A stretch of 64,000 nucleotides of DNA from Eledone cirrhosa (taxonomy: Eukaryota): contig OZ024740.1 of assembly GCA_964016885.1 (NCBI GenBank), positions 218,922,001-218,986,000 on the forward strand, written 5' to 3'. Shown one piece after another: positions 1 to 10,426 of the stretch. The translations under genes and the position numbers were made by a program. Positions within the stretch are counted from its first letter, which is position 1. Each line of letters begins with the position of its first letter. Below the pieces are notes generated by a model that searched no databases, was not told the origin of the DNA, and worked only from the letters and a program-made list of their open reading frames with translations.

Positions 1-705
1 TATATATATTGCTATCCTTAATATTTCAATAATATTCTTAAATAATTTTCAGCTGCGATATACATTTATTTCACTTTACAATATTCTAATTAAAATACAT
101 ATCAAACCAAACCAAACTTTACATTTCTTGGGTAATTCTAATCCAAGTTAAATCTCATTCTAAATTCTGCTGTGGTTATATAGAATGATACTTAAAAATA
201 CACACAAAATATTTTATAAAATTGTATACCTTTTATATGCATTCTTATTGGTTAGGTCTTTCCTTTTTCTTATATTTTTAAATGTCCTATTTTGTTTATA
301 ATTTATAATTTCTTTAATGTTACTTTATCTTTTGGTTGGTCTACAGCTCTTTATTAATTGAGGTAACTGGAAATTTTAACCCAAGTTTTTACTACAGTAA
401 GCAATATGTACATCAATATTTTTGTTGTATATATATGTCACCACTTTCCAATTGGCTGATGAACGAGGTGGCAATAACATCAACTTGTTTCTGGAACTTC
501 TGTGTACCTAAGGTATATGCTAGTTTGCCATGTGTTTCACATAATATACACATACACTCACACAGTCTGTGGTGCTGAGACCACTAAACATGGGAGTACT
601 CAATGCATGGAGAGATGCAGAGTGGGTATAGAAATAGGCAAAATCCCAATCGCGGCTCCAATCTGAAACCACTTGGTGCTGCGGTCGGGATTCAACCTAT
701 TTATA

Positions 706-915
706 TATATATATTTAATTACATAATAAACAACACAATATAATTATTCCATTTCCAAAGGTTTCAGGAGACTAGATGATCCTTACAGAAATGTCCAGCT
801 CATTCATCAGATGAAATAGTGATAACTTTTTTATATTGAGTTGTTTATTATGTAATTAAATAGCTCTCTACTATACAGAGCACTCTTCTTTCCTTTACCT
901 TTTCTATGGAAATAC
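706..915. mobile_element. Hammerhead-bearing inverted-tail element, family 1, copy 1
   Basis: Inverted arms TTTAATTACATAATAAACAAC / GTTGTTTATTATGTAATTAAA; 3' tail (TAGCTCT...AGAGCACTCT...CCTTTACC) is shared with 5833-6070. Confidence 0.6.
745..818 (-). ncRNA. Degenerate type I hammerhead ribozyme motif
   Basis: Minus strand: TATTTCAT-CTGATGA-ATGAGCTGGA...TCTAGTCTCCT-GAAA-CCTTTGG-AA-ATGGAATA. Stems I, II and III all form, but the conserved U16.1 position is A. Confidence 0.6.
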
Positions 916-2429
916 TTAACACACATATATATATATAAACCACCATTCTATGTTTGTTTTTCCATGCAACTGGACAGATCTCACTACTCATAACGAAAAA
1001 CAGGTGTTCAAATAATATCTCATGGTATTTGTGCTGGCAAAATTACAAAGAATTCCTTGTTACTCTAGCCAATATAAATGCAGTGAACTAGTTACTCGCT
1101 AGTTTGGAAATAAGTAACCCAATAATGCTATTTTTCATCAAACACGATAGAATAAAAAAATTACTTTATTAAAATTTATTAGTATAATTGAAAACGTGTA
1201 ATTAACAGAAAGAACATTAGACTCCAACCTTAAAATATAACAACCAGCAATGATTTATAAACCCCGATAATACAAACAGTTTGTGTTTATTTGTAAAACT
1301 TTTCAAGATCATCTACATTAAATATTGCTAATTTTAAATAGTTGATTTGAAAAAAAAAATTAAATGGTGTCATTCATTTTTTTTAACCAAATTAATTTTT
1401 AGATTTTTTAATAACCCAGCAAGGTTTTATTTAAACCTGAAGGCAATATTAAAAGCCAATTTAGCTATCTAAGAGCAACACTATATTTTATAAAAATGAA
1501 TACCTTAAGTACATACTGTTTATACAGCAGCAATAACCTGTAAGTGTATACAATGGAATTTCATTATGTTCATACATTTTAACAGGTAGATTTATTAAAG
1601 TGAATTAAAATTGTAAATAATACAACAAAATTTTATTTCCTATACTCTCTTAATTCTGTAAAGCAAGGTAATAACCTCACATTCTATACCATTTTAGTCT
1701 ATTTATTAGAAGCTAAATACAACAAATAATTATATTAACACATTACAATGGAAGGGTCAAGTATAATGAAGGTTCTACTTAGTAATAAAATGGAAATGCT
1801 AATAATAACTGGCATTGGCAGCAACAGAAGAATAAGTAGATTGCAACATTGTTTTAAAGAAAATAATACTTCTAACGGATACTTGACACTAACATAACAT
1901 TAAACACAAATATAGCACAATTATGACACTAACAATAAGTACCAGGATTTTGCCAAATTGACTGGTTTTTCCAATTCTTCCAATTTAAATCTCCAACAAT
2001 CTGCCATAGAGATAAGTTCATCGAAGTAATAAAAAAAAAGACATAAAATCTAATTGTTCAATTTCTAATCTGAAGATTTAACAATATTTAACATTAGTGT
2101 CTTATCAAAAGTGAGCACCACCACATATCCATGGACTAAAATGTAGATTCTCCTCACCATAAAACTGAAATTAATAGTTTACATGCAGAACGACCAGTAA
2201 AAAGTATGCCAGAAAGTCTTCAATAAACTAACTACATTAAAAAAAAAAAAAAAAAAAGACATTTTGTTTTGAACAGTGGCAGACATATCTTATTCAGTAA
2301 ACACCCAACATTTTAACAGATATGAAAAGAATCAGGGCCAGCTATTATTAATCAGTGCAATAATAAAAAAAAAGCCTGTCCTGCAGCCAGAGTCTTATTA
2401 GGCCAAAGCTTATCCCAGTCTCATTGGCA

Positions 2430-5600: not shown

Positions 5601-5832
5601 CATTACATCTTAGTTAAAAAAAAAAAAGAAGCCAAGCAAGCAGGCATTGACTAGCAAATGTCTGGATCAAATAGCACAGCAGCACCAAGATGTCAACAGC
5701 AAAACTAACAGCATCACCACTAACAACAATTAGACATGCTTTGTTGTTGTTGTTGTTTTTTTACCAAAGGGAGACAATTTATAACCTACCAAAGAGCTAG
5801 AGAATAAATAATCTAAATCTTTTCATTTGTAA

Positions 5833-6070
5833 TATATATATTTAATTATGTAATAAACAACACAATACAATTATTCCATTTACCAATAGAGCTCAATAGA
5901 GACGCCTGAAATCGTTCATCAGAAAGGAAAATTTAAGACGTCTCTATTGAGCTTGCCTGTCATCGTGAAACCTTTGGTAAATGGAATAATTGAATTGTGT
6001 TTATTACATAATTAAATAGCTCTGTAGTATACATAGAGCACTCTCCCTTCCTTTACCCTTTTTACGAAAC
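5833..6070. mobile_element. Hammerhead-bearing inverted-tail element, family 1, copy 2 (ribozyme split between strands)
   Basis: Inverted arms about 5841-5886 and 5974-6016, plus inner AGCTCAATAGAGACG/CGTCTCTATTGAGCT. CTGATGA on minus at 5916-22; GAAACCTTTGGTA on plus at 5967-79. Confidence 0.65.
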
Positions 6071-6378
6071 CAATTAAACGAACAACAAACTATTTAAAAA
6101 ATATAGAAATATCACACACACATACATACAACACACACAGTGTCACCAAGTAAAACATATTGTCATTTTATAATGTTTAACTAGAGGTTGTCTGGGATAA
6201 AATGATTTAATATTAAATTGTTCTGATATGAAAATTATATAACTGAAATCTTTACAATAATATTATCATGTTAGACAATGACAAGCAACCTTAATAAATT
6301 TTATTCAAGAAAATAATAACAGGGAACAATCTTTTAATACAATATATATTATGTTAAGAGTTATGAATGTAAATATGA

Positions 6379-6948
6379 CTAGCAGTGGTACCCGGCGTTG
6401 CACGGGATAAGGTATTGTGAAATATATAACCGCCTTAGCTAAGCTTAGTATTGTCACAACCACGGCTGGCAAAGAAGTAAGGGTCTAGTGGTACGTAAGT
6501 AAGCAACACTGTGGCTTAAAACGTGAGGAAGAAGTTGTATGCACTTACCAACTGTTTGGGGAATTAGTGTGAGATTTATCTTGAGCAAGGGTGGCAGAAT
6601 AACCGGAAGCAACAGACAGACATATTATAAGGGCGCATTCTGGACGCAGAGCGAATAGTAGGAAGTGACATAATGCAGACAGCCAGACATAGACAGATAT
6701 TATAAGGGCACGATGTTATATGTATGTATCTATCTAAAAAGAGAAAGACTAAGAATTATAGAGAGAGACATCGCTAAATCGCCTAATGCAGTCCCTAGGG
6801 CATTGAAAATTTGAAATTTTTTTTGCTCAGAACACTCCCTGAAACATATTACATGTGTAAAGTTTGAAAACAGTCGGTTGCGTGCTTCTCTAGTTTTAGG
6901 GATTCAAACTCACACAGACAGAGACATCCTCAGTTTTATATATATAGA
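6379..6948 (-). mobile_element. Non-autonomous Helitron
   Basis: Minus strand starts TCTATATATATAAAA, ends CTAG after the hairpin CCCGTGCAACGCCGGG, and sits between host A and T; internal ACAG repeats. Confidence 0.8.
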
Positions 6949-8770
6949 TGATTCAAATTGAGAGGGATATGTCACATGTAGTAGTAGATGGACCAGAGTA
7001 GTGTTATATGGACTAGATTAGGGAAATCCTCCCCACAAGACAAAAGTATTAACTAAATTCTAATTTTATCAGAACAGCATATTTTACATGAAACAGAGGA
7101 CAGTGTGATTGTGAAAGAGAGAGGAGCTTAAAATGTTAATATGAGGATGCATGCAGTAAACTACCATACACACACACATTTAACAAGCTTCTCTCTATAA
7201 TTCTTAGTCTTTCTCTTTTTAGATAGATACATACATATCTACTAACAAGATATTGGTTAGCCCAAGGCTATAGAAATAAATACTTGCTCAAGGTGCTACA
7301 CAGTGGGTTGGAACCTAAAACCATGTTTGTAAAGCCAACTTCCTAATTATGCAACCATGACTTCACTTATATAATCTGATAATTAAAAGGGGTTGTGACT
7401 GTGCTTAACTCAATCCTCCATATTTTTTTAACACTGAAATTTGAAGGTGAAGCTCTGGCTAATTTAATAAGTTGGGAACAGTAAAGTAACTTCCTGTGAG
7501 AGATGGTACACATTTAAAACCATCTTGTATCTAAACTATAGTCATCATATTAGTTCTTTTATAGTTTTCTCTTTCTCTTATATACTAAATTGTTCGACAC
7601 TCGTCCACTCCTATACAAACCTACAGAACATAGTTTTATGATTTTTTAAATTATAACTATACTTATCTATATTTAGTAGATAACATCTAGGAAGTACTCT
7701 TAATTAACTTGTTTGAAAAAAAATTGAACCCCCAGTCTTTCAAACAATTAAGCTTTCACAAAGAAAGAATAAAAAAGAATAACTGATGGCTACATTAAAA
7801 ATGACATTACTTTTTAAACTACTAATATAATTACTCTTCTAATATTTTTTTTTTTTTACAGAAACTATAATGAAATAGATTATTAAACAAAACAAAAATG
7901 TTATATGATAGTTAGATTATCAAACAAATATTAACAACCAGTCACTTCAACATTATTAAATTGTTACTGGGTTAAAAATGAATCTAAGAACAAAACTTCT
8001 CAATGAAACACACTATCAGAATTTCCGAGTAAAATATATATTTATCTAAATAAATAACCTTATCAAAACTAGATTTGAAATAGTTGACAAGGGAAATACC
8101 AGTAGTTAATTTTATAAATAAATAATATATTATATAGTTGGACAGCTAATAAGACAGTGACTGTCTTAATTTAAATTATCTTAACAAATACGAAAAGGTA
8201 CAAACATTCACAAATACTTCATGCAAATAATGCCTTTACGCTGAGCAGATCAAGCATTGTAGATAAATAGTGTTTCCTGAAAGAAACTTTATTCAAGACA
8301 TTATCAGAAAAATATTTTGACAAAGAATTGTTTTAAAAACTATTTCTATTACAAAACATCAAATAGTCCAATTAACTAATGACATTACAAGATCAACACT
8401 AAACACCTATTTATTTTCCAGTTTAGAATACGAACCAATAACATATCTCAAATACATACAGTATCTATGAAATTAAAAACTATTTTCATCACTAAATATT
8501 TGATTTAATTAGTGCTATTATTAATAAGCATTATGTCCAAATATTTACTTGTAGTGGTGAAAGATTTATAGCCATTGTAATAGATGTAAATATATTACAA
8601 TGTAAAGAAAATTATACAAAAGATAACTTTGTAGTTTAATATACAGAAGAAAAGCTGTTTAAGAATTAACAATTTTGAACTTTAAAAACAGTAAGTTCAG
8701 AAAGTATTTTTTCTTTCATGTCAACAGAAATGGAAACTCAAAGAAACAATATGTAACATATTCAACTTAC

Positions 8771-8910
8771 CGATTATGATCTGGACCTATCATAGAAAAC
8801 TTATAATCAGCTTGTATTTTATTTTGCTGCAGAAATTGATGGAGTCTGCTCTTAGCATTCTCCAGTGTCCAGTTGCCGTGAATACTAGCATTCAAGTCAA
8901 GATCTTCTGA
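8771..8910 (-). CDS. DHX9: DHX9 coding exon 5 (start of dsRBD2)
   Basis: ctcttcAG|SEDLDLNASIHGNWTLENAKSRLHQFLQQNKIQADYKFSMIGPDHN(R)|GTAAGT; the HGNWTLENAK and GPDHNR motifs are characteristic of DHX9. The next exon was not found in 1-8770. Confidence 0.96.
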
Positions 8911-10426
8911 CTGAAGAGATAAAAATATTATAAATCTTAATTATAAATATATTTAACAGTTTCTAATTTAGGTATAAGATCAGCAATTTGAGAAGACCGG
9001 CAGTTGGAGGATGGGTGAAGTTGACCTTAGTGGGATGTGAAGTCAGAGACAGGGGTAATGAATGTGGAGTAACAGAAAAGGCTGGAAACAGCAGAAATAA
9101 GAATGGTCTGGTTGATGAGTGAAGTATTGCTGAGAGAGAGGAAGACAATCAATGAAGTGCAGAGGAGCAAGTGATGAATGTTGTGAAGAGAAATGGAATG
9201 CGATGGCTGGATCATATGTTGAGGAAGAATGACTGGATGAGAGGAGTGATGGAAATAGAGGATGGGGAAGATCTAGAAAGACATGGCTAAAAATGATGGG
9301 AGAAGAAATTAAAGCTGGTGAGGGGGCTGCAGACAATAAGGAAAAGTGGAGAAGCTAGTCATGGACAGGCAGGGCTAACCTCTGTTTTAGCAAAGAAAAT
9401 GGCCTTAAAATATTTATCATGAGCAAATAAGAGAGCCTCTACAGTTGCTCAACCTGCTAGATTTTAGCCTATTGTCATAGAAAGAGAAGGACATGTTAGA
9501 TGATGGAATCTTACATTTACAGTATCATATGTGTATGTGTGAGATGTCTAACCCATGCAAGCATGGAAAAATAGATGTTAAACAGTGATATCTTATGATT
9601 TATTGAGGTACTTTGATGATTTGAAATTTGAAATGTAATCTAAATGCAGAAATCACTATAAATAATATATTTTCTAAAGCTATAATTATTTATAGCTATT
9701 ACTGTATTTGGATTCCAATATTTCAAGTTTCAAATCATCCAAGCAGCTTCATAAATCATAAAATTTGTTTACTTCTGGCTTTAGCTCCTAATTTAACAAA
9801 AAAAAATTTTTTTTAATTATCAAACATGTTTTTATTATTATTTTCCTTTCATTCAATATATCAACCAAAGTTAACATAATAATTATTTCTAAGGCCAATT
9901 AATTTATTTTTTAGAGCAAATGAGGGGTGGAGATAATTGACTGGTACTTTATAGACCATGGAAGGAAGGAATGGTAAAGCTGACTATGGCAAGATTTGAA
10001 CTCAACATAAATAAATATCATTAAATATTTTTCAGGCACTCAAATGATTTTGCTATCATCATCACTGTATAACATCCATTTTTCCATGCTTGCATGGGTT
10101 AGAAGAGTTCTCCAACTGTGAAACAAGCCAGATCAAGTTCTTACAGGGCTGATTTTGGCTGGCTTCTATGGCTGGATGCCCTTTCTAATGCCAACCACAT
10201 TTACAGTTTGGACTGGGGGCTGGGTAACTTATCTGGTGATGGGTAGGGTGTTAGGACATGGGTGCAGTATTAGGACGTGGGAGATGTATGGAAGAGGGAG
10301 GTGGTGCATACTAGATGCATGCTTCAACCCTTGTCCCCTTGCCCATGGGAAGGCAGGTCTTCTGCTAACCCAATAATAATTAAACTTTAACAGCATAAAC
10401 TCGGAAAAATAATGAAAAATAATTAC

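What the first reader, a model, noticed from the sequence alone, without database searches (positions are those of the whole stretch)
5840..6017. Hammerhead split into halves on opposite strands of an inverted repeat in a DHX9 intron
Seen: the minus strand carries the 5' half TTCCTTT-CTGATGA-ACGATttCAGGCgtctctattgagct. The plus strand carries the overlapping 3' half gtctctattgagcttGCCTGtcATCGT-GAAA-CCtttGG-TA-AATGGAA. Joined at the shared segment they give a complete type I hammerhead: stem II ACGAT/ATCGT plus CAGGC/GCCTG, stem III ACC-UUU-GGU, a GUA site, and stem I UUCCUUU/AAUGGAA. Inference: template switching during insertion produced two truncated inverted copies, so neither strand now holds a whole ribozyme.
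Basis: partly seen in the sequence, partly recalled or inferred. Interest (0 to 1): 0.72.

Follow-up and report, generated by a model that had tools for sequence, protein, structure and literature searches.

The report
Decayed Penelope stub, broken hammerhead
The two ribozyme halves are really there, but they are the ends of one of hundreds of back-to-back copies of a known kind of jumping gene, and this copy most likely lost its working ribozyme by ordinary truncation and a small deletion, so it is ordinary genomic debris in an intron.

Summary
Observation confirmed, novelty not. Window 5839-6069 is one insertion of a dispersed repeat (665 exact matches to a 30-mer) in a 16-kb DHX9 intron. 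It is the hammerhead-bearing end (pLTR) of a Hydra-clade Penelope-like element: the repeat flanks RT/GIY-YIG frames with Hydra motifs. Head-to-head arms with a one-sided tail are the family norm (17 of 24 insertions, tail on one arm in 15) and are published for Penelope-like elements. The minus arm is not 3'-truncated: it runs on through GUA and stem I, and lacks only about 20 nt around GAAA, a junction unique in the genome. The plus arm is 5'-truncated. Whole hammerheads exist elsewhere (53 sequences). Neither arm is whole in 5 of 17 fold-backs. The DHX9-strand RNA is predicted to be one long hairpin. Caveats: reads confirm both flanks but not the interior, Rfam gives no hammerhead match, cleavage is untested. 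The scan already noted this layout on other DNA of this genome.

The parts
5832..5841 (.). short (TA)n target remnant at the left end
   Evidence: sequence; contigs join left flank to arm with 0 differences
5839..5936 (-). minus arm: pLTR copy from -14 to about +97 (first base of the core = 0), ends at the family's first fixed end, no tail
5916..5922 (-). hammerhead core CUGAUGA, preceded by stem I 5' strand and followed by stem II 5' strand
5886..5890 (-). internal deletion junction: about 20 nt (stem II 3' strand, GAAA, stem III 5' strand) replaced by 3 nt, making a short direct repeat
   Evidence: alignment; junction 18-mer unique in G000; not covered by reads
5874..5883 (-). GUA cleavage triplet and stem I 3' strand retained on the minus arm
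5930..5938 (.). head-to-head joint with short microhomology; L002 has the same joint but for one letter, with the tail on the other arm
5933..6069 (+). plus arm: 5'-truncated pLTR copy from about +12 to +152
5967..5986 (+). GAAA, 3-bp stem III with UUU loop, GUA (5977-5979), stem I 3' strand
6019..6069 (+). one-sided tail, about 8 nt short of the family's second fixed end and without (TA)n behind it
   Evidence: contigs join tail to right flank
8770..8913 (-). DHX9 exon (aa 158-205 of P0001) upstream of the host intron
702..932 (.). second, more decayed fold-back copy of the same family in the same intron

Best explanation
This is a short head-to-head insertion of the hammerhead-bearing end of a Hydra-clade Penelope-like retroelement in a DHX9 intron, likely made when the element's enzyme cut both strands of a TA repeat and primed two reverse transcripts, and likely dead as a ribozyme because one arm is 5'-truncated and the other lost about 20 nt of the core. 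Shown: family membership, two fixed outer ends (about +97 and +160), link to RT/endonuclease frames, the lesions on each arm. Inferred: one cDNA began at each fixed site on uncleaved RNA, the two were joined at their 3' ends by microhomology, and the deletion arose during or after insertion by microhomology-guided slippage or repair. Predicted: the DHX9 pre-mRNA folds the locus into one long hairpin and is not cleaved there.
For: Family: 85 matches from 40 of 604 candidates scored; 665 exact 30-mer matches, control 0. Layout: of 24 insertions taken in genome order, 17 are head-to-head and 15 of these have the tail on one arm; 26 of 68 outer ends fall at +159/160 and 29 at +92 to +98. Source: family arms lie within the same 10-kb stretch as one endonuclease type in 8 of 20 stretches versus 1 of 24 controls (p 0.006); 9 of the 20 were picked after seeing co-location, the 11 picked by rank give 5 of 11 (p 0.007). 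L181 reads (TA)n, inverted pLTR with tail, truncated RT/EN frame, UTR, pLTR, (TA)43. Hydra motifs DKT, CxCX5C, CxxC, CxH present (defined in PMC8557442 section 11). Two primings: in L206, L209, L222 the arms share little or no sequence, which self-copying cannot give. Uncleaved template: 0 of 68 inner ends at the cleavage position +59, nearest +55, as in PMC11167929. Decay is common: neither arm whole in 5 of 17 fold-backs; 5' core on one arm and 3' core on the other in 3 of 19 insertions. Hairpin; forcing the hammerhead fold inside the fold-backs L002 and L017 costs 77 and 93 kcal/mol, against 0.9-7.2 for the motif alone.
Against: The interior 5888-5959 has no contig at 99% and no listed piece spans the element, so the deletion is unverified. 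Rfam finds no hammerhead model in the window or in 4 loci with whole motifs; the lowest-energy folds of whole copies are not the hammerhead fold and z is near 0. Pfam names no RT or GIY-YIG in 5 of 5 fragments of the linked frame; no intact full-length source element was found. For overlapping arms such as this one, self-copying followed by a flip of the central spacer cannot be excluded. The two rare letters both improve stem II of the join, which chance decay would seldom do (my rough estimate, post hoc).
Confidence: 0.88

Rival explanations
1. Same element, but made by self-priming: one cDNA folded back on a microhomology and copied itself, with the central spacer flipped later.
For: Joint has short microhomology and recurs in L002. 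Arms of one insertion are more alike (94.2%, n 30) than arms of different ones (91.1%, n 1954 non-independent pairs). Tail-on-longer and tail-on-shorter arms are about equally common (5 and 6 of 17), as flips would give.
Against: As it stands each arm holds sequence the other lacks (-14 to +11; +98 to +152). Insertions with non-overlapping arms (L206, L209) cannot be self-copies. Arm likeness also follows from one source RNA.
Confidence: 0.2
2. The split is an assembly artefact: hairpin DNA was misread and the true allele keeps a whole core on the minus arm.
For: No contig of the three best holders is listed across 5888-5959 at high identity; the junction makes a short direct repeat inside a strong hairpin.
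Against: Depth is only 4-8, the tool warns that holes prove nothing, both flanks match with 0 differences, and similar small internal deletions occur in other copies (L039, L093, L110).
Confidence: 0.1
3. A functional split or switchable ribozyme: DHX9-strand and antisense RNAs assemble an active hammerhead in trans, or a flip of the spacer 5905-5938 puts a whole hammerhead on the plus strand.
For: The halves do complement each other in sequence, and two rare letters improve stem II. The spacer lies between 15-bp perfect inverted repeats.
Against: Sense and antisense RNAs pair fully (232 of 232 bases, -403 kcal/mol); each strand alone is a long hairpin; the lesion is single-copy; the same split state arises in other decayed copies.
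Confidence: 0.02
4. A MITE or non-LTR retrozyme rather than a Penelope end.
For: Short, palindromic, high-copy, non-coding, with a type I hammerhead.
Against: The inverted repeat is internal sequence with variable inner ends and unequal outer ends, not fixed terminal repeats; no tandem array here; arms flank Hydra RT/EN frames.
Confidence: 0.03

Closest known systems
Insertions of endonuclease-bearing Penelope-like elements: inverted 5'-truncated pLTR plus one-sided tail (PMC8557442 passages; PMC3846280 passages)
   Same: Head-to-head arms, tail on one end, (TA)n target, microhomology joint, copies disabled by small microhomology deletions.
   Different: Tail is about 63 nt, not 30-40; this copy is pLTR only, with no coding part.
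Hydra clade, e.g. Hydra-1_Obim (PMC8557442 section 11 and supplement passages)
   Same: DKT, CxCX5C linker, CxxC and CxH, (TA)n target, canonical hammerhead; the RT fragments resemble Hydra-1_Obim by eye; a 12-nt tail motif occurs twice in the paper's Hydra sequences.
   Different: Hammerhead sequence differs from that listed for Hydra-1_Obim (0 hits for this family's 3' core in the supplement), stem II is much longer, UTR is kilobases of microsatellite; so another family of the clade.
Poseidon element PAc of Anolis (PMC11167929, parts 1-2 of 4 read)
   Same: Two reverse-transcription start sites define the tail; both strands are cut and extended; uncleaved RNA is the main template.
   Different: Other clade; shown in vitro there, inferred from copy ends here.
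Type I hammerheads in pLTRs (PMC4209133 passages) and non-LTR retrozymes (10.64898/2026.07.22.740005, part 1 of 5)
   Same: Type I core in a pLTR.
   Different: Stem III is 3 bp with a non-palindromic loop, not the minimal form; no tandem array.

Membership tests
Type I hammerhead (family copies) | CUGANGA, GAAA and NUH in type I order on one strand | tested here: met
Type I hammerhead (family copies) | Stems I-III pair and covary | tested here: inconclusive
   90.3% of cells pair, 7 of 23 pairs change on both sides, slid controls 32-51%, but rows were chosen for pairing (45 of 53 used plus the two window arms) and are related; two sister families keep the fold with other stems and fold into it as lowest energy
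Type I hammerhead (family copies) | Match to an Rfam hammerhead model | tested here: not met
   none in the window or in 5 loci at E up to 10
Type I hammerhead (family copies) | Self-cleavage after GUA | not testable with these tools
   needs an assay
Type I hammerhead (this locus) | Whole core on one strand | tested here: not met
Endonuclease-bearing Penelope-like element | pLTR linked to RT plus C-terminal GIY-YIG frame | tested here: met
   for the family, not this copy; Pfam names no domain, assignment rests on motifs and likeness to the paper's Hydra alignment
Endonuclease-bearing Penelope-like element | Inverted 5'-truncated copy at the 5' end and one-sided tail | tested here: met
   this locus and 15 of 17 fold-backs
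Endonuclease-bearing Penelope-like element | Target-site duplication | tested here: inconclusive
   TA repeat at left, right end shortened and without TA repeat
Hydra clade | DKT in place of DKG; CxCX5C linker; CxxC and CxH in the endonuclease | tested here: met
   (L200, L192, L183)
Hydra clade | RWK motif near the N-terminus | tested here: inconclusive
   not found in the 5 fragments scanned, which do not clearly reach that region
Hydra clade | Placement in an RT tree | not tested
   no reference sequences held as data; compared by eye only
Hydra clade | Insertion into (TA)n | tested here: met
   loci printed
Non-LTR retrozyme | Tandem units each with a whole hammerhead | tested here: not met
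   no tandem array at the locus

The most novel reading that the evidence does not exclude
The locus is a switchable ribozyme: a flip of the 34-bp spacer between its inner inverted repeats, or pairing of DHX9 intron RNA with an antisense transcript, assembles a hammerhead with a better stem II than the family's and cuts RNA at the gene of the helicase that handles inverted-repeat RNA.
Probability: 0.02. Interest if true: 0.75.

Novelty: new member of a known kind. Interest (0 to 1): 0.14.

Why it matters
The locus itself matters little: it is one decayed copy. The family is of modest use: hundreds of short copies with two sharp outer ends and no inner end at the cleavage site fit the in vitro model of two internal start sites on uncleaved RNA, here in a second clade, and give a ready set for testing how the two arms are joined. 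If the split form did cleave, it would be an unreported type of natural ribozyme (one search for such a thing, listed nothing of the kind among 12 of 26 papers shown), but the evidence is against it.

Tried and rejected
Link to a Neptune-like frame in L113: rejected, it is another family nested in this family's TA tract, and its own copy L114 ends without this pLTR. Twenty long GIY-YIG loci belong to other families; one (L072) has a family copy 3.8 kb away, taken as background. Search for copies that run past the tail into coding sequence: 2 matches, both ending in TA repeats. Rfam: no hammerhead match. Pfam on the linked frame: nothing; its 120 listed homologues are unnamed or hypothetical. 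Sequencing runs: no RNA holder listed, so expression and cleavage were not examined; RAD-seq runs X5-X7 barely touch the locus. The second core-like 12-mer at 456-467 has no hammerhead 3' half nearby. RNA editing as the source of the rare G on the minus arm: a single A-to-G change, no cluster. Look-ups of earlier notes by sequence and nearby place gave nothing relevant. The joined or flipped form of this locus was not folded; natural whole copies were used instead. Paper searches: (listings only, except the five papers cited). Supplements were seen only for PMC8557442, as passages.

Full report
Observation. The letters are as described. The minus strand has the stem I 5' strand, the core at 5922-5916 and the start of stem II; the plus strand has GAAA at 5967-5970, a 3-bp stem III, GUA at 5977-5979 and the stem I 3' strand. 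They sit in a long inverted repeat that folds at -87 kcal/mol, z -9.87. The host is a DHX9 gene on the minus strand: five exons map in the window, the last at 8913-8770, and the next lies about 7.6 kb before the window, so the intron is about 16.4 kb. Named DHX9 hits are molluscan.

What it is. The stretch has many relatives in its genome: 85 matches from 40 of 604 candidates scored and 665 exact matches to a 30-mer of the 3' half. Numbering from the first base of the core, copies end at two fixed places, about +97 and +160, each usually followed by a TA repeat. Of 24 insertions taken in genome order (30 loci, duplicates merged), 17 are head-to-head pairs within 40 nt, and in 15 of them one arm stops at the first end and the other carries the tail.

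Why neither strand is whole. Two separate lesions. The plus arm is 5'-truncated. The minus arm runs on through GUA and stem I but lacks about 20 nt around GAAA; that junction occurs once in the genome. Neither arm is whole in 5 of 17 fold-backs, and the same 5'-here, 3'-there state appears in 3 of 19 insertions, this one included.

Is it a hammerhead? The core, order and stems are right, sister families keep the fold with different stems and adopt it as their lowest-energy fold, and for three family copies the fold lies 0.9-7.2 kcal/mol above the optimum. Pair counts favour the structure, but the rows were selected for pairing. Rfam has no matching model. Activity is untested.

Source element. 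Walking upstream led through a microsatellite-rich UTR to an endonuclease fragment. A first apparent link, in L113, was a nested insertion of another family and was dropped. Stretches around the linked endonuclease hold family arms in 8 of 20 cases against 1 of 24 controls; for the 11 chosen by rank alone, 5 of 11. L181 shows the textbook order: TA repeat, inverted pLTR with tail, truncated RT/endonuclease frame, UTR, pLTR, TA repeat. The frames carry DKT, CxCX5C, CxxC and CxH, the marks of the Hydra clade (PMC8557442 section 11), and resemble Hydra-1_Obim by eye. No intact source copy was found.

Mechanism. Most likely both strands of a TA repeat were cut, a cDNA was primed from each, one at each fixed site, and their 3' ends were joined by microhomology. 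This is inferred. It fits the Anolis element, which extends both strands and starts at two sites that bound the tail (PMC11167929), and it is required for copies whose arms do not overlap (L206, L209). None of 68 inner ends lies at the cleavage position, so uncleaved RNA was likely the template. Self-priming plus a later flip of the spacer remains possible for overlapping arms. In any fold-back the ribozyme strand is buried: forcing the fold costs 77-93 kcal/mol. The DHX9 transcript carries the arm without GAAA inside such a hairpin and is predicted not to be cut.

Limits. Contigs of public runs match both flanks into the arms with no differences, but none is listed across the interior; these runs may include the source sample. 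No RNA run was listed. The supplements of four of the five papers were not seen.

Verdict. A real but ordinary feature: a decayed head-to-head end of a Hydra-clade Penelope-like element, a layout already in print (PMC8557442, PMC3846280) and already noted by this scan on other DNA of this genome. New member of a known kind; interest 0.14.

Noticed in passing
window 702-932: Second, more decayed fold-back of the same family in the same DHX9 intron, with the tail on the plus arm.
   Followed up: partly
family fold-backs: Inner ends cluster at -2 to +3, the start of the core (21 of 68), the rest scatter from -72 to +131; half of the set was selected for likeness to the window, and overlap at joints blurs the ends.
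   Followed up: partly
window 6017-6045: The tail holds a small hairpin whose 12-nt 3' part also occurs twice in the published Hydra sequences from other phyla.
   Followed up: partly
L085:3795-5990 and L077: Other Penelope-like families in this genome show whole coding fragments as head-to-head pairs; L085 has a minimal hammerhead, unequal ends and TA flanks.
   Followed up: partly
L097:2041-2120, L107:1945-2013, L165, L193: Sister families: one swaps stem II entirely while keeping stems I and III, one changes stem I on both sides.
   Followed up: partly
window 6718-6766 and 7190-7238: Perfect 49-nt inverted repeat 423 nt apart, inside or beside another repeat that starts near 6378; its start looks Helitron-like to me (recalled, no call).
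   Followed up: no
G000:C2:142.03-142.33 Mb (L032-L034, L095-L101): A family copy with its flanks is repeated at least seven times in both orientations, as part of a segmental array.
   Followed up: no
L113:5000-8600: Three-level nesting: another Penelope-like family and a second short element sit in the TA tracts of this family's UTR.
   Followed up: partly
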